DNA of 64,000 bases from Escherichia phage SKA64. Under the pieces are notes generated by a model, which ran no database searches, had not been told where the DNA came from, and saw nothing but the letters and a program-made list of their open reading frames with translations. The translations under genes and the position numbers were made by a program. The stretch lies in the sequence record OM362897.1. One strand, given 5' to 3'. Shown here in pieces: positions 4,387 through 18,932 of the stretch (its first letter is position 1; each line of letters begins with the position of its first letter).

Positions 4387-4387
4387 T

Positions 4388-5044
4388 ATGACTATTAAAC
4401 ATATCTCTTTTGATGTATGGAACACACTGATCACAGCAAACTCCAATTACGCAGACATGCGAGCCTGGACTATCGCAAAATATGGAGATATTACGGAAGT
4501 TGAAGCAAGAGCAGCTTATAAAAAGATCAAAAAGGAACTGGATAATGCAGCACTTCAAGGCAAAGCCGAGTGTGCAGCATACGCCTGGGAAAGACTTGGT
4601 TCTGAACTTGGGATAACGCCTTGGAAGTCTGCAAAGCTTCGTTTCGAGTGTGAACAGTGGTTCCTTAAGTTTCCACCACACGTAGCCGTAGATCTGCCGA
4701 TGTACTTGCTGTATCTTTCTGGGCGTTATGATTTGAGTATTAAGAGCAATACCAACTTCATATCAGGGGATATTCTGCGTCGTGCTTGTAAGTTTGATAG
4801 TTGGAATTGTTTTGAGTTCACCCATTTCTCGGATGAAGCTTTACTTTGTAAACCAGATCCGCGATTCTTTGCTCGCACGCTCACGTATTCTCCGATCCCT
4901 CTGTTAGGGCACGAAGTGTTGCACGTAGGCGATAGTGAAGAATATGATGGAAAATGTGTTGACTTAGGGTTTAACTTCTGTCATATTAAGAACCCTAACG
5001 ACTTACTAGAGAAACTTAAAAGAGGAGAAATTGTAAATGCGTAA
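4388..5044 (+). CDS. HAD-like hydrolase (tentative)
   Basis: N-terminal FDVWNTL (variant HAD motif I) and C-terminal VGDSEEYD (HAD motif IV-like); assignment by motif only. Confidence 0.45.
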   Translation: MTIKHISFDVWNTLITANSNYADMRAWTIAKYGDITEVEARAAYKKIKKELDNAALQGKAECAAYAWERLGSELGITPWKSAKLRFECEQWFLKFPPHVAVDLPMYLLYLSGRYDLSIKSNTNFISGDILRRACKFDSWNCFEFTHFSDEALLCKPDPRFFARTLTYSPIPLLGHEVLHVGDSEEYDGKCVDLGFNFCHIKNPNDLLEKLKRGEIVNA

Positions 5045-5864
5045 TCAAACTCAAATTTTTGCAAATAAATTTGATGACCTGGAAACTGCTACTTTTGATA
5101 TCCAAGATTATTCAAAATTGAAATTTGGTAGTAACCAAGCTGCGCGTCGTATGGGTAAAGAATTGGCACTTCAGTTTTTTGCTCAAGTGGCAATGAAACA
5201 TATTGGGGAACAATTTGTTATCATTCCTTCTCCTTACAACCATGTGCATAATGCTGCAACAATGATGACAGATCATTTTATTAATTACTTCAATATGTTG
5301 CAAGCACAATATGATCAAGGTCGTTCAGCAGAACTGGACATTATTCATCGTAAAGTTAGCTATATCAACGATTATGGTTTCTTGGATAAAGCTAGTCGTA
5401 AGAAACTTATTGATGGGGATACATTCTACTGTAACAAAGAATTCTGGGGTGATAAGAAGCTTGTGTTTATTGATGATGTAAATATCACTGGAACTCATGA
5501 AGACAAACTGATTGAGATCCTTGATGAAAATCAAGTTAAAAATGATGTTTACTTCTTGTATTTTGCAAAATACGAAGGTAATCAAGCAGATACCGAAGCT
5601 AAACTGAATTTTAATTATATTAATACACCAGAAGCGTTTGTTAAAATGATTAATGAAGAACGTGATGCACAGTGTCTTGTTCGTCCTATTAAGTATCTTA
5701 TGGGCCAAAATCACGAAGACTTCAAAATCATTCTTAGCCAATTACCACACTACTATGTAGAGCAACTTTTCTTCGGATGTTTGGGAGAAGGTTACAACCG
5801 AATTTCAAAGTATGCCGAAAACTTTGAATTCTTGGATCGTTACACAAAACAACACATTCTGTAA
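5037..5864 (+). CDS. phosphoribosyltransferase-like protein (type I PRTase fold)
   Basis: PRPP-binding signature LVFIDDVNITGTHE (hydrophobic run, DD, TG-T); ATGCGTAA overlap with upstream gene. Confidence 0.55.
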   Translation: MRNQTQIFANKFDDLETATFDIQDYSKLKFGSNQAARRMGKELALQFFAQVAMKHIGEQFVIIPSPYNHVHNAATMMTDHFINYFNMLQAQYDQGRSAELDIIHRKVSYINDYGFLDKASRKKLIDGDTFYCNKEFWGDKKLVFIDDVNITGTHEDKLIEILDENQVKNDVYFLYFAKYEGNQADTEAKLNFNYINTPEAFVKMINEERDAQCLVRPIKYLMGQNHEDFKIILSQLPHYYVEQLFFGCLGEGYNRISKYAENFEFLDRYTKQHIL

Positions 5865-5877
5865 TAAGGAGCTAAAA

Positions 5878-6351
5878 ATGCTTAAAATGAAAACAGGTAA
5901 TCTTATTGATGCCGCTAAAGCAGGTGAAGTAACTGTTATTGCTCATTGTTGCAATTGTATGTGTAATATGGGGGCAGGTATTGCCCCACAAATCAAACGA
6001 GCATTTCCTTACGCATATGCAGCAGACTTAGACACAATGGCTGGTGATCAAAGTAAACTAGGTTGTTTTAGTTTAGGGGTGCCAGACGAACAATCAGATC
6101 CTTTGGTATATAATCTATACGGGCAGTATCGTTATGGATACAATGCTAAAGGTCGTCAGTTGGACTATGATGCACTTTACGATGCACTAATAGCTATGGC
6201 TAACGATTTGCTTCTCCGTGACCAAAAATGTAAGATCGGCTTACCTATGATTGGCGCTGGATATGCTGGAGGTAATTGGGCTATCATCCAAGTGATGATT
6301 GAAGAAACTTTAGTAAAAACAGGTCACGATGTGACTATTTATAAACTTTAA
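5878..6351 (+). CDS. macro domain protein (ADP-ribose binding/processing family)
   Basis: GNLID...VIAHCCNC...MGAGIA...IKRAF and later IGLPMIGAGYAGG match macro-domain motifs; start set at ATG 5878 with AAGGAG RBS rather than track start 5812. Confidence 0.6.
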   Translation: MLKMKTGNLIDAAKAGEVTVIAHCCNCMCNMGAGIAPQIKRAFPYAYAADLDTMAGDQSKLGCFSLGVPDEQSDPLVYNLYGQYRYGYNAKGRQLDYDALYDALIAMANDLLLRDQKCKIGLPMIGAGYAGGNWAIIQVMIEETLVKTGHDVTIYKL

Positions 6352-6664: not shown

Positions 6665-7639
6665 ATGCAACTTGGTTTCCCCATTATTGATGTAGTTGTT
6701 TTAGTTGGTATTTTAGCATTGTCTATTGGTATCGATTTCTTTGGTCACAAAGAAAATAAAGAAATTTCATTCAAATCCGCAGTTGATTGGTCGATCTTTT
6801 GGATTGGTGTATCATTAGCTTATTATGGTTTTGTATACTTCCAACATGGTGCCGATTTTGCTAACTTGTTTTTAAGTGGATATGTGTTGGAAAAATCTTT
6901 GTCGGTAGATAACTTAGTAGTATTTGTAGCAGTATTCGCAAGTTTTGGTATTAAAAGCACACACTTGCAGCACAAGATTCTACTTTGGGGTATTGCAGGT
7001 GCGATTGTCTTCCGAGGTGTGTTTGTAGCAGTAGGCACTTACTTGTTAAGTTTGGGCTGGTATGTTAATATCTTCTTCGGTGCGGTCATCCTTTTCTGTG
7101 CAGCTAAAATGGTATTTGCTGGAGATAATGACGCAGAAGTTGATTACTCTAAACACTGGGCTACCCGTATTGTTCGTAAACTGTTCCCTGTATCTAATAA
7201 AATGGATGGGGAGAAGTTCTTCACAATCGAAAATGGTGTTCGTGTAGCAACTCCAGCTTTGGTTTGCGTATTCGTGATGGAAATGGTGGATGTAATCTTT
7301 GCAGTAGATTCGGTTCCAGCGGTGATCGCAGTGACACAAGAACCCCTACTTGTATTCTCTTCGATGTTATGTGCAATCTTAGGTCTACGTGCTCTGTTCT
7401 TTGTTCTTAGTGTCGCACTGAAGTATCTGGTTCACTTGGAGAAAGCAGTTATTGTGGTTCTGGTGTTTGTAGGCGTTAAACTGATGTATCACCCGTTTGC
7501 AGAAACATTGCATGAGAAAATGAGTTTCCTGCCAGCACATATTGATCCAACTATTAGTATGTATATCGTGCTTGGTACTTTGGCCCTTGGTGTTATTGCA
7601 AGCTTTATCTTCCCTGAAAAAGAAGAAGCTACTATTTAA
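6665..7639 (+). CDS. TerC-family integral membrane protein
   Basis: 324 aa polytopic membrane protein containing YVLEKSLSVDNLVVF, matching the conserved E-x-SLSVDN signature recalled for the TerC family. Confidence 0.7.
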   Translation: MQLGFPIIDVVVLVGILALSIGIDFFGHKENKEISFKSAVDWSIFWIGVSLAYYGFVYFQHGADFANLFLSGYVLEKSLSVDNLVVFVAVFASFGIKSTHLQHKILLWGIAGAIVFRGVFVAVGTYLLSLGWYVNIFFGAVILFCAAKMVFAGDNDAEVDYSKHWATRIVRKLFPVSNKMDGEKFFTIENGVRVATPALVCVFVMEMVDVIFAVDSVPAVIAVTQEPLLVFSSMLCAILGLRALFFVLSVALKYLVHLEKAVIVVLVFVGVKLMYHPFAETLHEKMSFLPAHIDPTISMYIVLGTLALGVIASFIFPEKEEATI

Positions 7640-7681: not shown

Positions 7682-8032
7682 ATGAGTAATTTTGATGAAA
7701 TTCAAGAACTTGTTTGGGATTTATCTGGTGATGTGGATTACATTTCAGATTATCTTTCAAAAGTTTACCCTGGGGTAAGCGTTATGATTGTGACCAAAGA
7801 TCCAATTAGTTTGCCTCCCAATGTTGTAGCTTGTTGTGGAAGTGGTTCAGGAGAAGTAGAGCCTGTATCTCGTTGGGAATTAACTAAAGCTGTTTCAAAA
7901 CGAAACGGTGAAGTTTTGAATATTGATATTGAGCAAATATGGACTTCTCCAGCAGCCAAATGGAATGATCCAAATGGTTGGGATTTGTTCTTCTGGGATA
8001 ATGAGACTGATGATGAGGTGTTTTTAAAATGA
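7682..8032 (+). CDS. hypothetical protein (116 aa)
   Basis: ORF with RBS; acidic C-terminal half. Confidence 0.55.
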   Translation: MSNFDEIQELVWDLSGDVDYISDYLSKVYPGVSVMIVTKDPISLPPNVVACCGSGSGEVEPVSRWELTKAVSKRNGEVLNIDIEQIWTSPAAKWNDPNGWDLFFWDNETDDEVFLK

Positions 8033-8274
8033 AATACTTGTTGGTTGTGTTTGAAAATATCTGTTTTGCAATAGGGTTGTTTGTTGTAATTTTTGTATTG
8101 ACAAGCGTAATCAACGGCAGTAAAGTGAGTTTATACCGAGATGGAGAGCAACTTTATTGCTTCTCTGGAGATTTCAAACACAGATGTATTAATAGCCAAA
8201 ACGAGGAAAGCAAATATGAAAAAACTAGCCCTGATTTTAATTGGTTGTATCTTTTTAACAGCTTGCGAGGATGA
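8029..8274 (+). CDS. hypothetical small membrane protein (uncertain)
   Basis: ATGA start/stop overlap with upstream gene; hydrophobic N-terminus; overlaps the lipoprotein gene in another frame. Confidence 0.3.
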   Translation: MKYLLVVFENICFAIGLFVVIFVLTSVINGSKVSLYRDGEQLYCFSGDFKHRCINSQNEESKYEKTSPDFNWLYLFNSLRG

Positions 8275-8653
8275 AACAAATCCTGCACAATACCAACAAC
8301 CTCCTCAACAATACGCTCAACAAGGATCTGACGGAGATACAACTATTATCAACAATGGTGGCGGTTCTAGTAGTAGCGGTGTTGGTGAGTTTGCTACAGG
8401 TATGTTGTTAGGGCATATGATGAGTGGCGGTAGTAATCGTAGCAGTGGGGATTATAACGATAACAGAACGATTATTAATAAGCATTATAATACACCTAAA
8501 CCGAAAACTAATTTTTATGGTAAGCCTAAACAAGAGATAAAAACTTATGAAAAGCCGAGACAAACTTTTAAAACAAATAGTAGCTATACAACTCGTAAAT
8601 CTTACAATAGCCCTTTAAGTAAAAAGAGTTCATCTCGTAGCAAGCGACGTTAA
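8216..8653 (+). CDS. putative lipoprotein (Gln/Gly/Ser-rich, basic C-terminus)
   Basis: MKKLALILIGCIFLTAC signal peptide with lipobox LTAC; GAGGAAAG RBS; internal ATG chosen over track start 8141. Confidence 0.6.
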   Translation: MKKLALILIGCIFLTACEDETNPAQYQQPPQQYAQQGSDGDTTIINNGGGSSSSGVGEFATGMLLGHMMSGGSNRSSGDYNDNRTIINKHYNTPKPKTNFYGKPKQEIKTYEKPRQTFKTNSSYTTRKSYNSPLSKKSSSRSKRR

Positions 8654-8667
8654 TAAGGAGAAAAACA

Positions 8668-9261
8668 ATGACAATTTCTATTCGTACTTCCATTACAGGT
8701 GTTAAAAGTTTGCCTAATGCTTTGCAAATCACACGTGCTTTGAGGGATACGTTCTCTGCTGTGGATGAGCATAAGATGCTCGATAATCTCTCAAATTGGC
8801 CCTATTTTCATTATTTTAAAAATGAAGACGACGAGTTTATAGACGCTGTTTCTTACGGTTATGATTTCGGTAAGGAGGTTTCCCCTGAAGAATTTGTAGC
8901 TACGGTGTTCCCAAACGGTTTGCCTACTCGCAGTAAACGTAAAAAAGGACCAAAAAACAAGAAACGTGCTACTAATAAAGCTACCATTTTCTTTACTGAT
9001 GGCACACAATATACGATTAAAGACTTTGAAGAGGTATCTTATACAGCAGGTGGGAGTCTTTCTTTCTACACCATCAAAAAACAAAACTATACGTTCAGCC
9101 ATGTTTCTAACATGATTGAAATGTTAGTAGAAGATATTGAAAGCGTGGCTGTGTTAGGTATGCATAAAAGCTTTTTAATTACAAATATTTCAGATTTCAG
9201 TGCAAGTTTATCTGGCCCTGATTTTGAAGCCACGACCACGCATTTCGCTTTTAAGGTGTAA
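8668..9261 (+). CDS. hypothetical protein (197 aa)
   Basis: ORF with GGAGAAAAA RBS; no motif recognised. Confidence 0.55.
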   Translation: MTISIRTSITGVKSLPNALQITRALRDTFSAVDEHKMLDNLSNWPYFHYFKNEDDEFIDAVSYGYDFGKEVSPEEFVATVFPNGLPTRSKRKKGPKNKKRATNKATIFFTDGTQYTIKDFEEVSYTAGGSLSFYTIKKQNYTFSHVSNMIEMLVEDIESVAVLGMHKSFLITNISDFSASLSGPDFEATTTHFAFKV

Positions 9262-9264
9262 GTT

Positions 9265-9855
9265 ATGCATACCGAGAGAGACTTGCAACTCTTGTGGTGG
9301 GAAGTGATGCAGGAAATAAAAGAAGATTTTCCTGTTTACTACAACATGTTACGTGAAGCAGGATATAAAGCTTGTGTTAGAAACAAAGTGAATAACTCTT
9401 TCGGTTGGTGCAACTACCGAGATAAAATTGTTGTTGTAAATTGGCACTTGCATAAGAACTCCACAAGAGATATGATCGTGGATACAATGAAGCACGAAAT
9501 TGCTCATGCTATTGATGGTTGTATGGGTAAGTTTAGTAGGCACGGTGCTCATTGGCAAAAACTGGCAGCAGAATTAGGGGCTAATCCTAAAGCCACTTCC
9601 AAAGAGCCGTTGAACCACGAATATAAATATGTTCTTGTTCTGGTAGATAGGTTTGCGACAAGATGTGTTAGAGGTTATAATCGTAAACCTAATCGCATGT
9701 ACCCAGGTAAGCAACCTAATATGTGGTTGAAATCAGATAAAGAAGGGACCGAAGGAAAATTATGGTTGTATAAATGGGACGATTGGGTTAAAGTAGCTAA
9801 AGAGTACGGTGTTTCACCATATATAAGAGATGCAGAAGAGGAGAATGAAGAATGA
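9265..9855 (+). CDS. SprT-like zinc metallopeptidase domain protein
   Basis: IVDTMKHEIAHAIDG (HExxH zinc-binding motif in SprT-like context). Confidence 0.55.
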   Translation: MHTERDLQLLWWEVMQEIKEDFPVYYNMLREAGYKACVRNKVNNSFGWCNYRDKIVVVNWHLHKNSTRDMIVDTMKHEIAHAIDGCMGKFSRHGAHWQKLAAELGANPKATSKEPLNHEYKYVLVLVDRFATRCVRGYNRKPNRMYPGKQPNMWLKSDKEGTEGKLWLYKWDDWVKVAKEYGVSPYIRDAEEENEE

Positions 9856-10964
9856 CAAGTCCATTTTTAAAAGCAGCTACTGGTGGTCAGAAGAAGCCTG
9901 AAATGAGCGTATTTGCTGCAACAACAGATGCAAGTAAATCTGTATTCGCTCCAAGCGTGTTAGATGCCAGTCCTGTTTATGCACCAGCGGCACCGCAAGA
10001 AGTTCCAGTTTTGCCTTCTATGACCCGACAAGAGATTGAAGAGATTGGGGCAGAGGCAGGAACAACCTTGCGTTCCTTGAATGCCGAGGTGTTAAAACAT
10101 CAACGTAGTAATCAAGGCGATCAGATGAGTGAACGACTCACAGCTTTGATTAAACAGGCAAAACAACTTGATCCAAACTCTATTAAACAAAGCAAGGGTA
10201 TTACTAAACTCATTAAAAAAGTTATGGGTATGAAAGAAGACCTGTTCGGGGAGTTTGATAATGTTAATAACCGTATTGAAGAGTTGGTAAAGAACCTTCA
10301 AATGGATATTCGCAAAGAAGAAGATTCCTTGGTATATCTTGAAAAGCTACATCAAGCTATTGGACAATATGCTGCAAGTTTGAACCGAGATATGCAGCTT
10401 CTAACAGCAACCTATGAAAAAGAAGAACAAGCTTTGGCTGCTCTTCCAGAAGATGCAGTAGAACAGCGACAAGTGATCCGAGATACTTTGGATCTTCTGG
10501 AGATTCGTATTGCAGATTTAAAAGCATTGCGCCTACTGTGTGTCCAAATGGGACCGCGTGTACAAGGTATGCAAAAAGTTTCTGCAAGCTTAATGCGATC
10601 TGCGCGTAACATAGTAAATAATGTTATTCCTGCTTACTCTGCTAACTTCTCAATGTATATCGAGAGCTTACGTCAAATGAAAGCAGCAGAGACGCAGAAT
10701 AACGTTCTTGATGAATTTAACCTGGCAATTAAACTGGGTAGCGATCTTGCCACACAGAATCAGATCGAAGCAGCAGCACTGGCTAACCGTCAAGTGTTGG
10801 ATATTGAAACTCTGCGTCACGATCAGGAAAACTTGGTTAAGATGCTGGAAGAAACTAACCGCATCAATACGGAAGCCCGTGCTGCTCGTGTTGATTATAT
10901 TAATGAAGTTCAATCTCTGGAAGACGGGATGGTAGCTGCTGTGAAACGAGGGCTTGGTAAATGA
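9852..10964 (+). CDS. TelA/KlaA-like toxic-anion-resistance family protein (tentative)
   Basis: 370 aa, largely alpha-helical/coiled-coil, size and composition consistent with TelA; assignment supported mainly by TerC/TerD context. Confidence 0.4.
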   Translation: MTSPFLKAATGGQKKPEMSVFAATTDASKSVFAPSVLDASPVYAPAAPQEVPVLPSMTRQEIEEIGAEAGTTLRSLNAEVLKHQRSNQGDQMSERLTALIKQAKQLDPNSIKQSKGITKLIKKVMGMKEDLFGEFDNVNNRIEELVKNLQMDIRKEEDSLVYLEKLHQAIGQYAASLNRDMQLLTATYEKEEQALAALPEDAVEQRQVIRDTLDLLEIRIADLKALRLLCVQMGPRVQGMQKVSASLMRSARNIVNNVIPAYSANFSMYIESLRQMKAAETQNNVLDEFNLAIKLGSDLATQNQIEAAALANRQVLDIETLRHDQENLVKMLEETNRINTEARAARVDYINEVQSLEDGMVAAVKRGLGK

Positions 10965-11158
10965 GAATCCGTATCTATATAATTGATGAAGACATTGGTG
11001 TCCGTTATGATGACGAAAAACGATTCGCACCGATGGGAGGCATATATCCCCCAAGTGTTCTAGCAGTTTGTCGTGATTGTTATATTTATGAAGGTTGTCG
11101 TAACTTCCGTAAATTCGAACTCCTTGCAGATATTGACTTCAATGAGGAGGAGGAGTAA
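10961..11158 (+). CDS. hypothetical small protein with Cys pairs
   Basis: 65 aa, CRDCYIYEGC; ATGA overlap with upstream gene. Confidence 0.45.
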   Translation: MRIRIYIIDEDIGVRYDDEKRFAPMGGIYPPSVLAVCRDCYIYEGCRNFRKFELLADIDFNEEEE

Positions 11159-11331
11159 TGAAAATATTACGAGTGAATATTGAAACTGCTTGGTGTGGAT
11201 GCAATGAGGTTGTGGATATCGAAATTGAAGATGATATGTCTCAAGAGGATATAGAAGATCTTGCACACGAAACCTTTCAGGATTATTGTAATTACGGGTT
11301 CCATATTTTAGAGGAGGAAGAAGATGTATAA
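11158..11331 (+). CDS. hypothetical small acidic protein (57 aa, below track cutoff)
   Basis: ATG overlapping upstream TAA, GAGGAGGAGG RBS; found by manual translation. Confidence 0.35.
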   Translation: MKILRVNIETAWCGCNEVVDIEIEDDMSQEDIEDLAHETFQDYCNYGFHILEEEEDV

Positions 11332-11722
11332 TCCAACAGGTATTCTTTTAAAACTTACAGTAACAGACCCTACTCTTTTCATCAAGTTAGCAAGTGGTGA
11401 AGTTTATGAAGTAATGAAAGATGATGACGGTTGGTGTTATCTTTGTGGCTACTTCCTCTGTGATGCAGAAGAGTTAGAATCCATTGTAACTAAAGGTTTT
11501 TATGAAGAACCAGGGTTCCGTGTGGAAACTACGCAGAAACCTGATACCATTACGTTGACTCGACAGGAACTGATCACAATCATTGAAGATGCTTTTATTG
11601 ATGGCTGGAATACACAAGATAATGACTGGGGTGGACCCGAAGCTTTTCTGGAACATCATAAAGCTTATGGAGAATTTTGTGAAACCACTGTAGCTCTTGA
11701 TAATCTGAAGGAGGGTTTGTAA
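11324..11722 (+). CDS. hypothetical protein (132 aa)
   Basis: ORF with GAGGAGGAAG RBS. Confidence 0.55.
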   Translation: MYNPTGILLKLTVTDPTLFIKLASGEVYEVMKDDDGWCYLCGYFLCDAEELESIVTKGFYEEPGFRVETTQKPDTITLTRQELITIIEDAFIDGWNTQDNDWGGPEAFLEHHKAYGEFCETTVALDNLKEGL

Positions 11723-12285
11723 TGGGTTGTTTTAGCTTTTTGTGCAAAGAATCGGGCAAAGCTGCCCTTTCTACTTCTTTCGACGGATCACCTTGCTACC
11801 TCTTTCTTTTGAAGGACGGTGTTGTTATTGAAGAGATGTATGGCAACTATGATAGTTATGGTTGTGTTTTCTCTGGAAAGGAGGATGAAAATGGTGTTCG
11901 TGAACGATTTGAATGGGCTATGGATTGGAGTAAGGTTTGTGATTTGATGCATTCCTCAAATCCAAGAGACGGTATCGCTATGGTGCTGGAAGAGTACTTT
12001 ACAGGTGAAATCCCTACAGAACAATCTGACGGAGATCCTAACCAAGGTTGGGGTGATGGTGAAGAAGATCCAGATTGTTTTTTCAGCACAGAAAAGAATA
12101 AGTTTAAACGTGTTGACAACCCTTATCACAAAGTGCATAATACTCTCATTGAAACAGAAGATGACAAGATGGAAATTGAAGAAGATGATCCTCTTGTAAC
12201 ACTTCCTATAAGTGAGTTACAAAAGATCACTAAGGAAGCTTACGATTTGGGCTTCAAAATTGGTAGAGGAGGTATGCGTGTTTAG
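11722..12285 (+). CDS. hypothetical acidic protein (187 aa)
   Basis: ORF with GGAGGG RBS; Asp/Glu-rich. Confidence 0.55.
   Translation: MGCFSFLCKESGKAALSTSFDGSPCYLFLLKDGVVIEEMYGNYDSYGCVFSGKEDENGVRERFEWAMDWSKVCDLMHSSNPRDGIAMVLEEYFTGEIPTEQSDGDPNQGWGDGEEDPDCFFSTEKNKFKRVDNPYHKVHNTLIETEDDKMEIEEDDPLVTLPISELQKITKEAYDLGFKIGRGGMRV
12113..12141 (+). promoter_or_regulatory. possible sigma70-like promoter (TTGACA-17-CATAAT), intragenic
   Basis: Consensus hexamers at proper spacing about 140 nt upstream of the paralog-A/vWA gene pair, but inside a CDS. Confidence 0.3.
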
Positions 12286-12556
12286 ATTCAATATTCAAGA
12301 AGAAAAAAGTCAAGATTTACCTATTGCTTTCGAAGATCTTGACGTAGGGGCAACATTCATGTATTATGATGCCTATGAAGACGCAGGGTTGGATACGTAC
12401 CGTAACTTGGTGTTCATTAAAAATTCCACAAACAGTGCGATTTGTATTAATGGATCACTAGCACAACGAGGCTATACTCATTGCATCCCACCAGATACAA
12501 ATATGGTGGAAGTAGATTTAGAAGTTACCAATATTACACTTAAGAAGGAGAAATAA
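12278..12556 (+). CDS. small conserved protein, paralog A (pairs with 13578..13847)
   Basis: GTG start with AGAGGAGG RBS; shares DLDVGxTF...GLD...ITLK pattern with paralog B. Confidence 0.5.
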   Translation: MFRFNIQEEKSQDLPIAFEDLDVGATFMYYDAYEDAGLDTYRNLVFIKNSTNSAICINGSLAQRGYTHCIPPDTNMVEVDLEVTNITLKKEK

Positions 12557-12557
12557 T

Positions 12558-13352
12558 ATGTCCGAGAAAATCAGCCTGAAAAAACGTCAAGAAAACCTTG
12601 CTTTCTCTCTGAAAAAGAATAAGAACCTGAATGAAGGTAAGATTGTTCTTCGTGTAGCATGTGCTCTAGATATTTCTGGTAGTATGCATGGTCTATATTC
12701 TAGTGGGGTAGTGAGTGATTTTGTAGGTAAACTGCTTCCTTTTGGTATGTTGTTCGACGATAATCAACAAATTGATATGTGGGCCTTCAATACGAGTTCC
12801 CAAGAGCTTACTCCAGCAACAGCAGACGTTTACGACGACTATGTTGGTAAATGTATGCGTAATGTTCGTATCGGAGGTGGAACAAATTACGCCCCTGTAA
12901 TGGCAGATATCTACGATGAGTATTTTGGCACTGTTACCAAATATATTACCACTAAACAAGTGGTACAAGAGGAGGCTCCAAAGAAAGGCTTCTTTAATCG
13001 TCTGCTTGGTAAAACTGAAACAGTGTCTGTAGAGCGTGAAAAAGTTGTAGCTGTATCAGAACCAGGTGCTGACGTTACCCCTGGTGTTGTATTCTTCCAG
13101 ACGGATGGTGAGAATGGTGATCCTAGTGCTGTTCGTCGTCTTATCGAAGAGAATAAGAATAAACCTATTTATTGGTTCATGGTTGGCGTTGGTAATGAGA
13201 AGTTTGGCTTCCTGAAAGAACTGGCAAATGCTTATGATAATGTTGGTTTTATTGGCATTAAAGATTTAGACTTGACAGATTCAGAGCTTTATGACAAACT
13301 CTTATCTGAAGAGTTCGGAGAGTGGGTTGTTAAAGTAGGTGCTAAAAAATGA
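12558..13352 (+). CDS. TerF-like protein: TerD-type N-terminus fused to von Willebrand factor A domain
   Basis: N-terminal KISLKK segment like TerD; MIDAS motif LDISGSM plus GGGTNY and FFQTDGENGD. Confidence 0.6.
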   Translation: MSEKISLKKRQENLAFSLKKNKNLNEGKIVLRVACALDISGSMHGLYSSGVVSDFVGKLLPFGMLFDDNQQIDMWAFNTSSQELTPATADVYDDYVGKCMRNVRIGGGTNYAPVMADIYDEYFGTVTKYITTKQVVQEEAPKKGFFNRLLGKTETVSVEREKVVAVSEPGADVTPGVVFFQTDGENGDPSAVRRLIEENKNKPIYWFMVGVGNEKFGFLKELANAYDNVGFIGIKDLDLTDSELYDKLLSEEFGEWVVKVGAKK

Positions 13353-13597
13353 TCGACGAGCTTGCCTCTCAAGTCATAGAAAATTATTGGCGCGAGAGAG
13401 AAGCTTTCATTATGCGCAGTCTCAAAGAGTATTTCATTGGGACTGTGCGAATGGAAGATATTGTAAGTAGAGTGGAGATTCATGTATGGCCCGATTATGA
13501 AGAATGGGTTGACAAAGAAAATGAAAATGCTATAATTCTTCGTATATACAAACCGGAGATAACATTAGGAGGAAGAAGTGTTAAACTTCGAAATTGA
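13349..13597 (+). CDS. hypothetical protein (82 aa)
   Basis: ATGA overlap with upstream gene; contains a promoter-like sequence near its end. Confidence 0.45.
   Translation: MIDELASQVIENYWREREAFIMRSLKEYFIGTVRMEDIVSRVEIHVWPDYEEWVDKENENAIILRIYKPEITLGGRSVKLRN
13509..13536 (+). promoter_or_regulatory. possible sigma70-like promoter (TTGACA-16-TATAAT), intragenic
   Basis: Perfect -35 and -10 hexamers upstream of paralog B and TerD, inside a CDS. Confidence 0.35.
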
Positions 13598-13847
13598 TGA
13601 GCAAAAAGTAAATAAACGATGCCTTACCATTAAAGATTTGGATGTAGGAGATACTTTCGTCTATGAAAATGCATTTGACGAAAATGGTTTAGACCTTAGT
13701 GAAATCATTGTTTATTTAAAAGTAGATGATGGGGAAAATGATTATTCTGCTGTAGAACTAAACCATCATGCACAATTAGTATCAATCCAAAGCACATCTA
13801 AGCTTTTGGAAGTAGAATTGACTGTAACTGGTATTACACTTAAATAA
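13578..13847 (+). CDS. small conserved protein, paralog B (pairs with 12278..12556)
   Basis: GTG start with AGGAGG RBS; shared motif pattern with paralog A. Confidence 0.5.
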   Translation: MLNFEIDEQKVNKRCLTIKDLDVGDTFVYENAFDENGLDLSEIIVYLKVDDGENDYSAVELNHHAQLVSIQSTSKLLEVELTVTGITLK

Positions 13848-13862
13848 TAGAGGAGACAAAAG

Positions 13863-14465
13863 ATGACTGATAAAATTTCCCTGAAAAAAGGCTCTAGCGA
13901 AAAAATTTCCCTGAAGAAGGTTGCTCCGGCTCTGAAAGAACTGCGCCTGGAATTCTCTTGGAAGTCTGATTCTAAACTGGATCTGGATGTAAGTGCACTG
14001 GTTTGTCGTCACAATGCCGCTGGCAATCCTGAAATGCTGTCTGCACGTCATCTTGTTTGCTATGCTAACAAGTTTGATCCTGAACGTTCTACCTTCGCTG
14101 GTGACGATGTTCGTGATGGCACTGGCAGCATGGAGCAGATCGATATTACTCTGGCTAAAATCTCTCCTGATGCACAAGAGATTGCCTTTGTTCTGACCAT
14201 TGATGATGATACAGGTCTGAAACGTTTTGGTCATGCTTCTGAAGGTATGCTTAAAATCTTCGACTCCGAGCGCAATGTGGAAATTCTGGATTTTGACTTC
14301 CTGGCTCCTGAAGTAGCTGGCAACACAATCTGCCACGTGGCTTCCTTGGTTCGTGAAGATGGGGAATGGAAGCTGAAAGCATATGGTGTAGGCAAAGCTG
14401 GTCTGGATATTTGTGATGTGGTGATGGCCTTCGGTGGTAAAAAAGAATGGTATGAATGTCCATAA
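13863..14465 (+). CDS. TerD-domain stress protein
   Basis: 200 aa; N-terminal KISLKKG...LDLDVSALV and GDDVRDGTG...IDDD pattern typical of TerD; codon usage biased to CTG/CGT/GGC. Confidence 0.75.
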   Translation: MTDKISLKKGSSEKISLKKVAPALKELRLEFSWKSDSKLDLDVSALVCRHNAAGNPEMLSARHLVCYANKFDPERSTFAGDDVRDGTGSMEQIDITLAKISPDAQEIAFVLTIDDDTGLKRFGHASEGMLKIFDSERNVEILDFDFLAPEVAGNTICHVASLVREDGEWKLKAYGVGKAGLDICDVVMAFGGKKEWYECP

Positions 14466-14483
14466 TAATTAACAAATGATTTT

Positions 14484-14503
14484 GAGGGGGAGAAATCCCC
14501 CTC
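14484..14503 (+). terminator. stem-loop / possible weak terminator after TerD
   Basis: GAGGGGG-AGAAAT-CCCCCTC hairpin; weak U-tract, so efficiency uncertain. Confidence 0.35.
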
Positions 14504-14532
14504 TTGCAATAAAGCCTCTATCGTGTTATACT
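14504..14532 (+). promoter_or_regulatory. sigma70-like promoter (TTGCAA-17-TATACT)
   Basis: Intergenic, immediately after hairpin and upstream of hydrolase gene. Confidence 0.5.
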
Positions 14533-14564
14533 AGAAATTCGTTAACTTAAAAAGGAGGCAAAAT

Positions 14565-15086
14565 TTGCTGATAAAAAACTTTGTAACAGTTGCGTTACTA
14601 TCCTTAACTGCTTTTACATTTACACCTGTTGTGGCGAAAGCCGAAGCTGCAAACGTAAAAACCGCTAAAGTAGTTCACAAATGTACAAAGCAATATAATG
14701 ATAAAATTCTATTAGCTTGTGCAATTTACGCAGAAGGTCGCGGTCTGGGTAAAAAAGGAATGAATGCCGTTGGGAATGTGGTAATCAACAGAAGAAATGA
14801 TACCTACTTCCCTAACACAGTCAGAGGGGTCTTGTTCCAGAAAGGGCAATTCTCATATGCGAAAACTTTTAACGTAACAGAGAAAGATAAGTGGCAGGAA
14901 GCAAAAGCAATAGCGGAGCGTTTACTTTATTTAGAGAAACATTTTCCTGAATTGCGGTCTGTTTTAGATGTTACTAAAGGTGCTCTATACTTCAAGAAAC
15001 GGAATATAAGGACACACTGGGAACGTGATATGCGTCTTGTTTATCGAGATAAAGTGCATGGTTTCTATCTACCAAAGGGGAGTTAA
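14565..15086 (+). CDS. secreted cell-wall hydrolase, SleB-like domain (candidate endolysin)
   Basis: TTG start with AAGGAGG RBS; Sec-type signal peptide ending AKA-EA; AIYAEGRG...VGNVVINR...QKGQFSYA matches SleB-type hydrolase motifs. Confidence 0.65.
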   Translation: MLIKNFVTVALLSLTAFTFTPVVAKAEAANVKTAKVVHKCTKQYNDKILLACAIYAEGRGLGKKGMNAVGNVVINRRNDTYFPNTVRGVLFQKGQFSYAKTFNVTEKDKWQEAKAIAERLLYLEKHFPELRSVLDVTKGALYFKKRNIRTHWERDMRLVYRDKVHGFYLPKGS

Positions 15087-15087
15087 A

Positions 15088-15372
15088 ATGCAAGAAGATA
15101 ATACTGTTGTTGTAGCAAGTTACCTGGTTGTCGGTCTTACTGAAGAGGATGTATACTACACCCGTAAGCATTTAGAAGCATACGCTACTTTGTTTATGGA
15201 AGATGAAAAGGATGTAGATAAATATAGCATTGACATGATCAACGACAGTATTTATCCTTGTATGGTTCTTAAAGTAGATGCTGTGTTGTGGGAGCGTTTT
15301 GCAAGGACTCATGATGCTGTAGAATGCTCCGCAGTAATGTCTCAAAACAACATTTTAGGGGAGATTCATTGA
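15088..15372 (+). CDS. hypothetical protein (94 aa)
   Basis: ATG at 15088 with AAGGGGAG RBS, 1 nt after hydrolase stop. Confidence 0.5.
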   Translation: MQEDNTVVVASYLVVGLTEEDVYYTRKHLEAYATLFMEDEKDVDKYSIDMINDSIYPCMVLKVDAVLWERFARTHDAVECSAVMSQNNILGEIH

Positions 15373-15602
15373 TGGGAGAAGTCATTGAAGTCAATTTTCG
15401 CACTAAACAGAAAGTGCAAAAATATGTCGTTATTAAAAACATTTGCGTTGTCTGCTTCAATACAGTAATATACGACTCACGACGCGGAGAAAACGAAAAT
15501 GAACCTTACATTGAAATTTCTAAGAACAAAGGTCAATGTATTTGTAAGAACTGTGCAGTAGCTATTAAGGAGGTTGTAAATGAAAACGCTTGGGACCAAT
15601 GA
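15372..15602 (+). CDS. hypothetical protein with two Cys pairs (possible zinc ribbon)
   Basis: CVVCF...CICKNC; start overlaps upstream stop. Confidence 0.45.
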   Translation: MGEVIEVNFRTKQKVQKYVVIKNICVVCFNTVIYDSRRGENENEPYIEISKNKGQCICKNCAVAIKEVVNENAWDQ

Positions 15603-15771
15603 AACTGGCGAGATCTCTCTTCAAGAAGTGACAAACGACAAACTGATTAAACTACGGGACGTAGCCCGTGACCATCTCCAAGAATCTTTTAAAGAATATA
15701 TGGAAGCACGAGATCGTGTGATTCAGATCCAACAAGAAATGATTAAACGTGGGATTGTAGCTGACAGTTAA
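15580..15771 (+). CDS. hypothetical small protein
   Basis: AAGGAGG RBS. Confidence 0.45.
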   Translation: MKTLGTNETGEISLQEVTNDKLIKLRDVARDHLQESFKEYMEARDRVIQIQQEMIKRGIVADS

Positions 15772-15787
15772 TATAACGGAGGGGAGA

Positions 15788-16351
15788 ATGATTTATTATA
15801 TTACTCCCTATCTGACAGGAAATATCGGCAAGGCTATCAATGAAGCCATTGCCGTTCTTCCAGATGATAGTTGGGTGTGTTTAAGAGATACCGATACAAT
15901 GTTCCTCCTACCTGATCAACCATCTATGCTTGAAGAGCTTGTTATGTCAAACCCGCCTTTTGATGTAATAGGTGCAACTTGTAACAGGTTAGGTAGTGGT
16001 TATCAGCTTTTCTCTAACCAAATTAACGATGATCCCGATATTCTAAACCATATAGAATATGCTAAGATTGCAAGAGAATATCATAAAGTGAGTGTTGAAG
16101 AAGTTCCTTTCGGAACACCTCTGGCAGGTTTCTTTTTGCTTTTTAGAAAATCATTGTGGAATGAAATTCCTTTCGAAGAAAAATCTATCCAATTCGACTT
16201 AATTTTCTCTCGCACTTTACATGAAAAAGGAAAGAGGTTAGGATTGATGCGGGGAATGTATCTGTTTCACATTTACAGATTAGGTCAAACAAATCCTCAA
16301 CGGTCTATACATCATTTATTACACTGTCATGATCACAGTAAAACTATTTAG
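15788..16351 (+). CDS. putative nucleotide-sugar transferase-like protein (weak)
   Basis: LRDTDTMF DxD-like segment; first gene of glycosyltransferase-like run. Confidence 0.3.
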   Translation: MIYYITPYLTGNIGKAINEAIAVLPDDSWVCLRDTDTMFLLPDQPSMLEELVMSNPPFDVIGATCNRLGSGYQLFSNQINDDPDILNHIEYAKIAREYHKVSVEEVPFGTPLAGFFLLFRKSLWNEIPFEEKSIQFDLIFSRTLHEKGKRLGLMRGMYLFHIYRLGQTNPQRSIHHLLHCHDHSKTI

Positions 16352-16359
16352 GAGAGAAA

Positions 16360-17043
16360 ATGGAAAATATTAAAATCGGAGTGGGTGTTATCACTGTAGG
16401 TGTCCGTCCACTTAAAGACTACCTTGTAACAGATCCACGTGCAGATTTTCGAGTATTCAACGATCCAGATCGTAAAGGTGTAGCTTATGCCAGGAATGAA
16501 CTTATGCACCAGTTTTATGAAGAAGGTTATGATTATTGGTTTATTTTTGACGATGATTGCTACCCAGTCATGGAGGGATGGGAAACATACTTTGTAGATC
16601 AAGCTGTCTCTGGAGGATGGGATTTCTTTGGTATGCCGGAGTATTTCAAAGATAAAGTTGTTGGAAGCAAAGGAGAAGTTATTCTCTGGGAACTTGCAAT
16701 GTGTCAATTTGCAATGTATTCTCGTGCCGTTGTTGAGAAGATGGGTTATTTCCGTCCTTACACTCACGGTTATGGTTTTGAAGATGCTGAATGGGGACAC
16801 CGTTTGCAAGCTGCTGGTTTGAATCATGGTATTCAGGCAACACCTTGTCCACTTCGTATCATGGCTTATATCCACCCAGACGATGTTTTTGGAAACAATC
16901 CTATGCCTTTTGCTAACCTGACAAAAGAAGAGAAAGAGGCTGCTATTGGGATTAACTGGGAAGAATATAAAGCATCTTTAGAGGATATTAAAAATGGGAA
17001 AATCCGAATTTCCTATGAGGAGGCACTAGCACATGTCAAATAA
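16360..17043 (+). CDS. glycosyltransferase family 2-like (GT-A fold)
   Basis: KGVAYARNEL and FIFDDDCYP (DxD) motifs. Confidence 0.5.
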   Translation: MENIKIGVGVITVGVRPLKDYLVTDPRADFRVFNDPDRKGVAYARNELMHQFYEEGYDYWFIFDDDCYPVMEGWETYFVDQAVSGGWDFFGMPEYFKDKVVGSKGEVILWELAMCQFAMYSRAVVEKMGYFRPYTHGYGFEDAEWGHRLQAAGLNHGIQATPCPLRIMAYIHPDDVFGNNPMPFANLTKEEKEAAIGINWEEYKASLEDIKNGKIRISYEEALAHVK

Positions 17044-17980
17044 AAAATGGTCTAAACTAAAAATTGATGCAAAACCTCACAGCGGTTGTGACTATCATCG
17101 TATTGTTATACCATTTAACAACAATAATATTCAACCTAAGAAAGATGTTGTTGTGTTTAACCGTATCCACTCTAAAGGTGCAGAATACGTTTTATCTTTG
17201 AAACGTCAAGGTGTTAAGGTTGTTGTAGACTTAGATGATTTTTACCAACTTAATCCAGAACATTATTTAGCAAGTCTATACGAGTCAAACACTCATGCTA
17301 TTGTAGCTATGGTTAAGCTTGCTGATGTGGTTATTGTGACTACGGAATATTTGGCATATAAGATCCGTCACTTAAATAGGAATGTTGTTGTGATCCGAAA
17401 TGCACTTCCTTTTGATAGCGGACAATTCACTTTGTCAAATGATCGTTCATCCGGTACCCCTGTTGTATGGGCTGGCGGTGCTAGTCACGAACCAGACTTA
17501 CGACTAGTCTCTAATACTTTCGATGATGAACTTCTTACTATTGCGGGATATGAAGCATCACAAAGCATCACGGGACAAGAGTGGATTAAGATTCGCAGAA
17601 ATTTACCAAATGCCAAATATAAAGCCGCTGTAAAAGATTTAGATAATTACATGAGTGTTTACGAAAGTCATGCTATTGCTATAGCTCCTTTGGTAGATAA
17701 TGATTTTAATAATTGTAAAAGTAATCTCAAAATCCTGGAAGCTGGAGCAAAAGGTATTCCAATTGTTTGTTCTAAGGTATTACCTTATTTTAACCCTGTA
17801 GATGCTCGCGCTGTTGCTTACGCAGAGAATAAAGCAGAATGGCATTACGAAATTGTTAAGCTTCTTCGCAATCCAAACTATCGGGAAGATCGTGGCTTGT
17901 TCTTGGCTGAACATGTTCGAACACATTATAATCTGGCAGATGCAAACGAGTTGCGACGCCAGGTTATTGAAAGTTTGTAG
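17033..17980 (+). CDS. glycosyltransferase-like protein, paralog 1 (GT-B-like)
   Basis: NCKSNLKILEAGAKGIPIVCS resembles GT-B donor-binding helix; paralogous to next gene. Confidence 0.4.
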   Translation: MSNKKWSKLKIDAKPHSGCDYHRIVIPFNNNNIQPKKDVVVFNRIHSKGAEYVLSLKRQGVKVVVDLDDFYQLNPEHYLASLYESNTHAIVAMVKLADVVIVTTEYLAYKIRHLNRNVVVIRNALPFDSGQFTLSNDRSSGTPVVWAGGASHEPDLRLVSNTFDDELLTIAGYEASQSITGQEWIKIRRNLPNAKYKAAVKDLDNYMSVYESHAIAIAPLVDNDFNNCKSNLKILEAGAKGIPIVCSKVLPYFNPVDARAVAYAENKAEWHYEIVKLLRNPNYREDRGLFLAEHVRTHYNLADANELRRQVIESL

Positions 17981-17987
17981 GTGAAGT

Positions 17988-18932
17988 ATGGGACAAATAA
18001 TTCTTGACAATCGTAACGGAATCAATTATAGTGTCTGCGATTTCCATAGGGTAGTGCTGCCTTACTCAAGGCAGTTCTCTTCACAACCTAAACACAACGT
18101 TTTCGTTTTTAACGGAGTGCCAACAAAAGGTAAAGAGGGCTTTTTAGCCCTTAAAAACCTAGGCTTTAAAATGGTTATGGATTTGGATGACTCTTTAGTT
18201 ATTCCAAAAGGACACATGTTAGAAGGTATTTTTGAATCAGGTATTCGTGAACATTTAAAATGGTTTTTAGAGCACAGCGATCTTGTTACAACTACGACAC
18301 CTGCTTTGCAAGTTGAACTTTCACAATACAATGATAATGTGCACATAATCCCTAATGGTCTTCCTTACGATGAAGGTCAATTTGTGTTGACCCGTGATCG
18401 CTACTCCAAAACTCCATTAGTCTGGGCGGGAAGTGAAACACATAAACAAGATTTGGCTATCTTGCCCGATTTTGGTAAAGATCTTACGATATGTGGTTTT
18501 CGTAGGGATTCTGAAGTTTTAAGTAGTCGTGAATGGTCTGTGATCAGAGAAAATGTAGCACCAACTTGTGTTTATGAAGGTGTAAGACCATATGCCAACT
18601 ACATGGAATCTTACGATGGTCATCAAATCAGTCTTGCGCCATTGATTGATAACGTGTTTAATAATGCAAAAAGCAATCTTAAAATTCTTGAGGCAGGTGC
18701 TAAGGGTTTACCTTTGATCTGTTCTCCTCGTGAGAATTATCATACACAAGAGTTTAAAGATTTGTTATTCTTTGCTGAAACGCCTTCCGAGTGGAAAGAT
18801 ATTACGGAATACTTATTAAGTGCTCCCGATGTTTGCATGGAGAAAGGATTAGCATTAGCTAAGTATGTCAGGACTCATTATCACATTGATGTGTTGAATG
18901 AGCGTCGTAGACTTTTATTTGAGGAGCTATAA
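17988..18932 (+). CDS. glycosyltransferase-like protein, paralog 2 (GT-B-like)
   Basis: NAKSNLKILEAGAKGLPLICS; conserved N-terminus C-D-F/Y-H-R-V/I with paralog 1. Confidence 0.4.
   Translation: MGQIILDNRNGINYSVCDFHRVVLPYSRQFSSQPKHNVFVFNGVPTKGKEGFLALKNLGFKMVMDLDDSLVIPKGHMLEGIFESGIREHLKWFLEHSDLVTTTTPALQVELSQYNDNVHIIPNGLPYDEGQFVLTRDRYSKTPLVWAGSETHKQDLAILPDFGKDLTICGFRRDSEVLSSREWSVIRENVAPTCVYEGVRPYANYMESYDGHQISLAPLIDNVFNNAKSNLKILEAGAKGLPLICSPRENYHTQEFKDLLFFAETPSEWKDITEYLLSAPDVCMEKGLALAKYVRTHYHIDVLNERRRLLFEEL

What the first reader, a model, noticed from the sequence alone, without database searches (positions are those of the whole stretch)
12278..14465. Duplicated two-gene cassette: small paralog followed by a TerD-type protein, twice
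Two about 90-aa proteins (12278..12556 and 13578..13847) share a clear motif pattern (DLDVGxTF...GLD...ITLK), both use GTG starts after AGGAGG-type RBS, and each is followed by a protein beginning with the TerD-like KISLKK segment (vWA fusion, then canonical TerD). Each cassette has a consensus promoter-like sequence upstream. This looks like an ancient tandem duplication of a functional pair.
Basis: seen in the sequence. Interest (0 to 1): 0.6.

Follow-up and report, generated by a model that had tools for sequence, protein, structure and literature searches.

The report
Paralogous small proteins in phage Ter operon
Two related 90-residue proteins of unknown function sit in front of the vWA and TerD genes of a "tellurite-resistance-like" (Ter) gene cluster carried by an E. 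coli phage; they are real, conserved genes that are probably small accessory subunits of that known system, but the region is not a duplicated two-gene cassette.

Summary
S1 (12278..12556) and S2 (13578..13847) are true paralogs: 34% identity, pairwise E=1e-14, both in PHROG 11278. Both have GTG starts behind GGAGG. S1 precedes a vWA-TerF-like gene and S2 a TerD gene. The two best sigma-70-like promoter matches in 8000..16000 lie just upstream of them.

The window is a Phapecoctavirus. The genes belong to a larger phage Ter cluster (HAD, PRTase_3, Macro, TerC, SprT, TelA, vWA, TerD), a kind of system already described in phages.

The cassette-duplication reading is only partly right. vWA and TerD are unrelated folds that are already neighbours in phage Ter modules lacking S. 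Relatives carry one S gene, either before vWA (phi92, Klebsiella 05F01) or between vWA and TerD (metagenomic phages). An 82-aa ORF lies between the two "cassettes". Only the S gene was duplicated.

S is predicted to be an SH3-like small beta-barrel (pLDDT 83). Every member whose surroundings I read lies next to vWA and/or TerD on phage-like contigs. It is under purifying selection but evolves much faster than its neighbours.

Best guess, inferred rather than shown: S proteins are adaptor or regulatory subunits of the phage Ter complex. Moderate-to-low interest.

The parts
12113..12141 (+). Promoter-like site P1 (TTGACA-N17-CATAAT, 11/12) inside the 3' part of the 187-aa ORF, 137 nt before S1
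   Evidence: The same 11/12 site is present in phi92 (L002 4836..4864), and an 11/12 site sits at the equivalent place in phiWec179 (L003 3647..3675). Function not tested.
12278..12556 (+). S1: 92-aa member of PHROG 11278, GTG start, predicted SH3-like small beta-barrel with one helix
12558..13352 (+). vWA-TerF-like protein (264 aa) with an intact MIDAS motif; its start lies 1 nt after the S1 stop
   Evidence: PF10138, E=1.6e-37. D38 and S42 are invariant, S40 is >=90% conserved, and T109 and D183 are invariant across 32 homologs. AF2 pLDDT 91.7. dN/dS 0.08-0.16.
13349..13597 (+). orf82: conserved 82-aa ORF of unknown function (PHROG 22387). It overlaps the vWA stop (ATGA) and the S2 start (20 nt) and contains promoter P2
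   Evidence: Present only where S2 is present (L003, L013, L014, L020, L021). dN/dS 0.2-0.37. No similarity to the 187-aa ORF.
13509..13536 (+). Promoter-like site P2: perfect TTGACA-N16-TATAAT with an extended -10 TG
   Evidence: The only 12/12 match in the 64-kb window on either strand. Found as a 12/12 site with TG in L001, L003, L013, L014 and L020, although the flanking proteins are only ~50% identical. Function not tested.
13578..13847 (+). S2: 89-aa paralog of S1 (PHROG 11278), GTG start
   Evidence: The independent BFVD model of the phAPEC8 ortholog superposes on the S1 model with TM 0.78-0.81. dN/dS ~0.4.
13863..14465 (+). TerD-domain protein (200 aa), 15 nt after S2, with its own GGAG site
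   Evidence: PF02342, E=3e-28. dN/dS 0.05-0.11. 16 of 19 Leu codons are CTG, against 0 of 12 in S2.
14484..14503 (+). GC-rich hairpin (8 bp, GAAA loop) after TerD. It may mark the transcript end or stabilise it; there is no U tract
   Evidence: sequence.: -18.5 kcal/mol, z=-2.8. The terminator scan does not call it.

Best explanation
S1 and S2 are paralogous ~90-residue SH3-like beta-barrel proteins. They form a small family seen so far only on phage or phage-like contigs, and they are accessory components of a phage-borne Ter module (TerC, TelA, vWA-TerF-like, TerD, plus PRTase, HAD and Macro genes upstream).

In this Phapecoctavirus the order is P1 - S1 - vWA - orf82 - (P2) - S2 - TerD - hairpin. 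The genes are tightly packed, with overlapping or abutting stops and starts. This suggests one early operon read by host sigma-70 polymerase, with an internal consensus promoter that boosts S2 and TerD.

I think each S protein most likely binds a Ter scaffold protein encoded next to it: S1 the vWA protein, possibly through the near-invariant Asp of the GLD motif at the MIDAS site, and S2 the TerD protein. In that role S would tune or direct assembly of the membrane-proximal TelA/TerC/vWA/TerD complex. Others have proposed that phages use this complex against superinfecting phages or envelope stress.

Shown: paralogy, predicted fold, strict synteny, promoter conservation, purifying selection. 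Inferred: physical binding, the MIDAS contact, and the biological role. The duplication involved the S gene only.
For: - Paralogy and family.
- Ter cluster composition.
- Synteny: all 26 S genes that the family HMM finds in 21 fetched loci are adjacent to vWA-TerF and/or TerD, in three architectures, down to ~25-30% identity. The 906-bp fragment L019 is uninformative.
- Distribution: about 30 protein clusters in two searches of 5.8 billion proteins, plus an exhaustive HMMER scan of 1.84 billion representatives. Every member whose contig I read lies on a phage or phage-like contig.
- Coupling: the S1 stop and the vWA start are 1 nt apart here and overlap in the Klebsiella-type phages.
- Selection: dN/dS 0.2-0.4.
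- Promoters: the P2 consensus is conserved across diverged lineages. Sites scoring >=11/12 number 9 in the window against 2.7+-1.6 in shuffles.
- MIDAS residues in vWA are conserved. GLD is invariant or nearly invariant in S.
- Phage Ter systems and the superinfection-exclusion idea: PMC7824862 and PMC8386662.
Against: - No interaction was tested or predicted; the tools here cannot co-fold two chains.
- S is absent from many phage Ter modules (CcrColossus, Kremar, L022, L023). No S homolog turned up outside phage-like contigs, so none is known in bacterial Ter operons. S is therefore dispensable for core Ter function.
- S evolves much faster than vWA or TerD: S2 is 51% identical where TerD is 90%.
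- TerD is strongly codon-optimised (16 of 19 Leu are CTG) while S2 is not (0 of 12). This argues against 1:1 stoichiometry.
- The role of the Ter system itself is unproven.
Confidence: 0.55

Rival explanations
1. One reading: an ancestral pair (small protein + KISLKK-headed Ter protein) was duplicated in tandem as a unit, and the two downstream genes then diverged into vWA and TerD.
For: Each S is followed by a protein that starts with KISLKK. DNA similarity of 76-77% runs across both S 3' ends, the RBS and the first ~9 codons of the downstream genes (families D3 and D4). Both units have a promoter-like site upstream.
Against: vWA and TerD are different folds and Pfam families, with no similarity beyond the short N-terminal motif. 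They are neighbours in S-less phage Ter modules, directly or with only TerC between them. The motif is a general feature of vWA-TerF-like proteins, including TerD-vWA fusions where it lies between the domains. Single-S genomes already have both vWA and TerD. orf82 interrupts the supposed repeat. The junction DNA similarity is explained by conserved residues plus the RBS.
Confidence: 0.07
2. The S genes are independent small early genes, such as host-takeover or anti-defence effectors. They ride in the same operon as vWA and TerD but do not act with them; the adjacency reflects shared early expression only.
For: S evolves fast, as arms-race proteins do. S is missing from many Ter modules. Phage early regions are full of small ORFans. 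S2 and TerD have very different codon usage.
Against: Adjacency to vWA or TerD is kept in three different gene orders across lineages down to ~25% identity, while other small flanking ORFs come and go. No S gene was found away from vWA or TerD. Stop and start coupling with vWA is conserved.
Confidence: 0.2
3. S proteins act on the Ter proteins as negative regulators or caps. For example, they could occupy the vWA MIDAS site or block TerD oligomerisation until a trigger arrives. They would then be assembly inhibitors rather than positive adaptor subunits.
For: Same synteny evidence as the main explanation. A near-invariant acidic GLD motif in S sits alongside an intact MIDAS in vWA. S2 codon usage is weak relative to TerD, which suggests a sub-stoichiometric regulator.
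Against: There is no direct evidence. The data here cannot distinguish this from the adaptor model.
Confidence: 0.15

Closest known systems
Phage-encoded Ter systems (Iyer, Anantharaman, Krishnan, Burroughs and Aravind 2021, PMC7824862; also phiKp34, PMC8386662)
   Same: The same component families occur in one cluster: TerC, TelA, vWA-TerF-like and TerD, plus PRTase and HAD 'signal biosynthesis' genes. The TelA-vWA-(TerC)-TerD order is also seen in Caulobacter and Pseudomonas phages.
   Different: In the passages I read, those descriptions list no small SH3-like component. Here one or two S genes flank vWA and TerD. S is restricted to Stephanstirmvirinae-type phages and one related metagenomic lineage.
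Bacterial terZABCDEF / telAB and B. subtilis yceCDEFGH Ter operons (Anantharaman, Iyer and Aravind 2012, cited from memory and via PMC7824862; the paper itself was not held)
   Same: The same domain families occur: TerD, TerC, TelA and the vWA of TerF. The vWA keeps its MIDAS motif and the N-terminal [IV]SLxK-x-[IV]SLxK element.
   Different: No S homolog was found outside phage-like contigs in three large searches. The phage vWA is stand-alone, not fused to TerD. The phage has one TerD rather than several paralogs.
PHROG 11278 (unknown function)
   Same: S1 and S2 are full-length members (E=4e-51 and 1e-44). So are the distant relatives P0027, P0028, P0031, P0033 and P0034.
   Different: Nothing: this is the family. 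It carries no functional annotation.
SH3-like small beta-barrels (ribosomal L2 C-terminal domain, KOW, Tudor, FeoA, DtxR C-terminal domain, HspQ)
   Different: Sequence identity is 4-15%. There is no Pfam match. S has an extra helix after strand 1, and its conserved N- and C-terminal segments are not assigned regular strands in the monomer model. This is a fold-level resemblance only.

Membership tests
PHROG 11278 (S family) | Full-length match to the family HMM | tested here: met
   S1 E=4.2e-51 over 1-92/92; S2 E=1.4e-44 over 1-89/92.
TerD domain family (PF02342), for 13863..14465 | HMM score above Pfam's gathering threshold over the whole domain | tested here: met
   98.9 bits against a cut-off of 25.3; residues 5-179 match profile positions 3-177 of 187.
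TerD domain family (PF02342), for 13863..14465 | Ca2+ binding by the conserved acidic loops | not tested
   Acidic GDDVRDG and DxD motifs are visible in the sequence, but I did not map them onto a solved TerD structure.
vWA-TerF-like (PF10138), for 12558..13352 | HMM score above the gathering threshold | tested here: met
   130.1 bits against a cut-off of 29.4.
vWA-TerF-like (PF10138), for 12558..13352 | MIDAS motif DxSxS plus the downstream Thr and Asp | tested here: met
   D38, S42, T109 and D183 are invariant and S40 is >=90% conserved in 32 homologs. The model has a Rossmann-like vWA fold, pLDDT 91.7.
TerF proper (TerD domain fused to vWA) | An N-terminal TerD domain | tested here: not met
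   There is no PF02342 match on the 264-aa protein. Only a ~20-residue motif precedes the vWA domain, and it is predicted helical. True fusions of 424-459 aa exist elsewhere (P0096-P0099).
Ter system as a gene neighbourhood | Co-location of TerD, TerC, TelA and vWA, with PRTase and HAD genes | tested here: met
   HAD 4388..5044 (weak match, below Pfam's cut-off), PRTase_3 5037..5864, TerC 6665..7639, TelA 9852..10964, vWA, TerD.
Tandem duplication of a two-gene cassette | Both genes of copy 1 are paralogous to both genes of copy 2 | tested here: not met
   S1 and S2 are paralogous. vWA and TerD are not.
Tandem duplication of a two-gene cassette | The copies are contiguous, and the outgroup carries one copy of the unit | tested here: not met
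   orf82 lies between the copies. Outgroups carry vWA and TerD together with one S or none.
SH3-like small beta-barrel fold | A five-stranded, strongly bent barrel superposable on known SH3-like domains | tested here: inconclusive
Sigma-70 promoters (P1, P2) | Transcription initiation about 7 nt downstream of the -10 element | not testable with these tools
   Only consensus matches and their conservation were assessed.

The most novel reading that the evidence does not exclude
S proteins are dedicated specificity or regulatory subunits of the phage Ter machine. S1 docks on the MIDAS face of the vWA protein through its near-invariant GLD aspartate, and S2 docks on TerD. Their rapid evolution would then reflect an arms race with the competing phages or host factors that the complex senses or excludes. 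If so, the S-vWA and S-TerD pairs would be the first defined protein-protein contacts in any Ter system, and a handle on what Ter modules recognise.
Probability: 0.15. Interest if true: 0.55.

Novelty: new variant of a known kind. Interest (0 to 1): 0.33.

Why it matters
Ter clusters are widespread in bacteria, plasmids and phages. They have been linked to tellurite, colicin and phage resistance for decades, yet no molecular mechanism is known. A small accessory protein that always sits beside the vWA and TerD genes, and that one phage genus keeps in two diverged copies, one per partner, offers a concrete set of candidate interactions to test. Beyond that the finding is incremental. The genes are already deposited as hypothetical proteins in more than 100 phage genomes, and the surrounding system has already been described.

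Tried and rejected
- **Extending the S family.** Two profile searches of 5.8 billion proteins and one exhaustive HMMER scan of 1.84 billion representatives gave only about 30 small proteins, all on phage-like contigs wherever I read the contig. The long hits in the exhaustive scan (P0023, P0029, P0030, P0032) are Ig, cadherin or fn3 repeat proteins that match short stretches many times. I rejected them as spurious; P0026 looked the same but was not scanned.
- **S as a TerD fragment.** hhalign of the S profile against a phage TerD profile gave probability 0.2%. Rejected.
- **orf82 as a duplicate of the 3' end of the 187-aa ORF upstream of S1.** This would imply a larger duplicated block. There is no similarity. 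Rejected.
- **Timing of the duplication.** An NJ bootstrap tree of 24 members recovers four clades (S2 76%, S1+phi92 83%, Klebsiella-type 99%, vWA-S-TerD lineage 88%), but the deep order is unresolved. A tblastn with a vWA-S-TerD lineage member hits S2 loci best. That is only suggestive.
- **Defence-system match.** PADLOC models gave no hits for any of ten cluster proteins.
- **Wider fold search.** The Foldseek afdb50 library was not available.
- **Literature.** Anantharaman et al. 2012 (PMC4104200) is not held. I found no paper mentioning both phAPEC8 and TerD.
- **Co-folding S with its partner.** This was not possible. The structure tool takes one chain and returns no inter-chain metrics. 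An in-frame S2-TerD read-through would have lacked a TerD alignment.
Full report
**What the window is.** The 2.9-kb region around the finding is 98.7-99.4% identical to dozens of ~150-kb E. coli myoviruses of the genus Phapecoctavirus (phAPEC8-like, Stephanstirmvirinae). All genes discussed here are on the + strand.

**Checking the observation.**
- ORFs at 12278..12556 (S1, 92 aa) and 13578..13847 (S2, 89 aa) align over their full length at 34% identity, pairwise BLASTP E=1e-14.
- Both ORFs are full-length members of PHROG 11278, which has no known function. Neither has a Pfam match above threshold.
- Both are annotated as CDS at these coordinates in Shigella phage SF1-1.
- Both start with GTG, 5-6 nt after GGAGG. 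Orthologs in other lineages have ATG at exactly that codon.
- The gene after S1 (12558..13352) is a vWA-TerF-like protein (PF10138, 1.6e-37). The gene after S2 (13863..14465) is a TerD-domain protein (PF02342, 3e-28). Both begin with KISLKK.

**The surroundings.** The genes belong to a larger Ter cluster on one strand:
- a weak HAD-type hydrolase match (4388..5044), below Pfam's cut-off
- the Ter-linked PRTase_3 (5037..5864)
- a Macro domain (5875..6351)
- TerC (6665..7639)
- a SprT-like peptidase (9265..9855)
- TelA (9852..10964)
- small ORFs, then a 187-aa ORF, S1, vWA, orf82, S2 and TerD
- a SleB-type cell-wall hydrolase, the endolysin (14565..15086)

Phage-borne Ter systems with these components have been described. 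They are proposed to act against superinfecting phages or xenobiotics (PMC7824862; PMC8386662). PADLOC has no model that matches any of the ten proteins tested.

**Comparative anatomy.** Four arrangements occur in related phages.
- **S-vWA-TerD-endolysin, one S.** Seen in phi92 (Justusliebigvirus), Klebsiella phage 05F01 and related metagenomic contigs (L005, L008). S1 is 67% identical to phi92 gp174.
- **S1-vWA-orf82-S2-TerD, two S.** Seen only in Phapecoctavirus-type genomes: the window, phiWec179 (L003) and a diverged metagenomic lineage (L013, L014, L020, L021). In that diverged lineage S1 and S2 are only ~50% identical to the window copies, while vWA is 83% and TerD 90% identical.
- **vWA-S-TerD-(Band_7)-endolysin, one S in the S2 position.** Seen in a more distant group of metagenomic phages (L012, L015-L018; the short L011 shows S-TerD).
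- **No S.** Caulobacter phage CcrColossus and Pseudomonas phage Kremar have TelA-vWA-TerC-TerD. Two ~145-kb phage contigs have vWA next to TerD. None has an S gene. An HMM scan of all fetched loci confirms the absence there. It also finds exactly two copies in the 64-kb window.

**What this means for the cassette idea.**
- vWA and TerD are pre-existing neighbours of unrelated fold. The only BLASTP similarity between them is the short N-terminal stretch (E=0.013).
- That stretch, [IV]SLxK-x(5-7)-[IV]SLxK, is a general N-terminal element of vWA-TerF-like proteins. It is found in S-less phages, in a bacterial stand-alone vWA (Neobacillus), and between the TerD and vWA domains of true TerF-like fusions.
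- In a confident model of the window's vWA protein (pLDDT 91.7), residues 7-20 are helical. The resemblance to the TerD N-terminus is therefore at the motif level only.
- DNA similarity of 76-77% across the two S-3'end/RBS/start junctions is explained by conserved residues plus the Shine-Dalgarno sequence.
- The duplicated unit is the S gene, with orf82 accompanying S2.

**When the duplication happened is unresolved.** An NJ tree recovers four supported clades but no deep order. Members of the vWA-S-TerD lineage are slightly closer to S2 (four of five are closer to S2; tblastn best hits fall on S2 loci). Like S2, they lack the C-terminal xEK tail. This hints at an old duplication followed by differential loss.

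**What S is.**
- AlphaFold2 with a 21-sequence alignment gives pLDDT 83.4 and pTM 0.72: a small beta-barrel with one helix after the first strand.
- In BFVD the best match is the phAPEC8 S2 ortholog (TM 0.78-0.81). The two paralogs therefore share the fold.
- A profile comparison with TerD is negative.
- The family is tiny. About 30 clusters turned up in two searches of 5.8 billion proteins and an exhaustive scan of 1.84 billion representatives. Every member whose contig I read is on a phage or phage-like contig. The large Ig-repeat hits are spurious.
- Conserved positions include F4, L21, G24, T26, F27, the G37-L38-D39 motif, A54, N58 and the alternating V79/L81/V83 in the C-terminal segment.
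- dN/dS is 0.2-0.4 for S1, S2 and orf82, against 0.05-0.16 for vWA and TerD. These are real genes that evolve fast.

**Expression signals.**
- P2 (13509..13536) is the only perfect TTGACA-N16-TGnTATAAT in 64 kb on either strand. It is found as a 12/12 site with TG in L001, L003, L013, L014 and L020.
- P1 is conserved as an 11/12 site in phi92, and there is an 11/12 site at the equivalent position in phiWec179.
- Sites scoring at least 11/12 number 9 in the window, against 2.7+-1.6 in shuffles.
- Gene junctions are tight. S1 stop to vWA start is 1 nt. vWA and orf82 overlap in ATGA. orf82 and S2 overlap by 20 nt. S2 and TerD are 15 nt apart.
- A GC-rich hairpin (14484..14503, -18.5 kcal/mol, z=-2.8) follows TerD.
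- TerD uses CTG for 16 of 19 leucines, against 0 of 12 in S2. This suggests very high TerD expression and argues against equimolar S2 and TerD.

**Most likely mechanism (inferred).** S proteins are small adaptor or regulatory subunits of the phage Ter complex. They would be made early from host-type promoters together with their partners. The vWA protein has an intact MIDAS motif (D38 and S42 invariant, S40 near-invariant, T109 and D183 invariant). S has a near-invariant acidic GLD motif. An S-to-MIDAS contact is therefore a concrete, testable guess.

The main rival is that the S genes are unrelated early genes hitch-hiking in the operon. The strict adjacency across three gene orders argues against this. 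The patchy distribution of S and its fast evolution keep it alive.

**Verdict.** This is a lineage-specific elaboration of an already described phage Ter module, of moderate-to-low interest. Its value is as an entry point for interaction studies on a system whose mechanism is still unknown.

Noticed in passing
window 12930..13064 (vWA residues 125-169): The vWA protein carries an insertion that AF2 models as a long two-stranded beta arm (E125-141, E153-169) with a short helix at its tip (145-150, GFFNRLLG). G144, F145 and G151 are nearly invariant across 32 homologs, including a bacterial one. The tip may be amphipathic and touch the membrane.
   Followed up: partly
window 13863..14465 versus 13578..13847: There is a sharp codon-usage break between adjacent genes. 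TerD uses CTG for 16 of 19 Leu codons (GC3 0.38), while S2 uses CTG for 0 of 12 (GC3 0.21). Other genes in the cluster range from 0 to 33% CTG. This suggests very high TerD expression or a different origin.
   Followed up: partly
protein P0022 (metagenomic contig, 14.5 kb); corresponds to window 11722..~11790 joined to ~12440..12556: A 55-aa protein joins the N-terminus of the 187-aa ORF (MGCFSFLCKESGKAALSTSFDGS) to the C-terminal 37 residues of S1. This looks like a natural deletion variant that lacks most of both genes.
   Followed up: no
window 12539..12584 and 13836..13918: The C-terminal strand of S ([IV]-[ST]-L-K-K: ITLKK in S1, ITLK in S2) resembles the [IV]SLKK motif that opens the next protein. 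Each gene junction therefore encodes three similar short motifs in a row. No explanation found.
   Followed up: partly
window 12339..12367 (inside S1); L020 6062..6090: The conserved LDVG codons of S1 (cTTGACg) create a promoter-like site inside the gene. It scores 10/12 here and 11/12 in the diverged lineage. It may be a by-product of coding or an internal promoter.
   Followed up: no
window 17033..17980 and 17988..18932: Two adjacent glycosyltransferase genes (315 and 314 aa, both annotated as PHROG 7162 in SF1-1) are 41% identical, E=1e-77. This is a second tandem gene duplication in the same window.
   Followed up: partly
window 14484..14532: The hairpin after TerD has a GAAA tetraloop and no U tract. 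It overlaps the -35 of a promoter-like site (TTGCAA-N17-TATACT with TG, 14504..14532) in front of the endolysin gene.
   Followed up: partly
one search hit list (records OP562383, MG065650, MH252123 and others): Records named as Acinetobacter, Campylobacter, Klebsiella and Pseudomonas phages are 98.7-99.4% identical to E. coli Phapecoctavirus genomes over this region. The host labels may reflect contamination or mis-assignment.
   Followed up: no
L002 6788..7390 (phi92 gp171); L015 2095..2574: Other lineages insert different genes between TerD and the endolysin. phi92 has a 200-aa protein with no Pfam match; one vWA-S-TerD phage has a Band_7 (SPFH) protein. The 3' side of the module is a variable slot.
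   Followed up: no
window 3781..6351: Upstream of TerC lie a 201-aa ORF with no Pfam match, a weak HAD-type hydrolase match, a Ter-linked PRTase_3 and a Macro domain. Together these look like a nucleotide-derivative synthesis or processing block. The literature passage I read does not list a Macro domain among Ter components.
   Followed up: no
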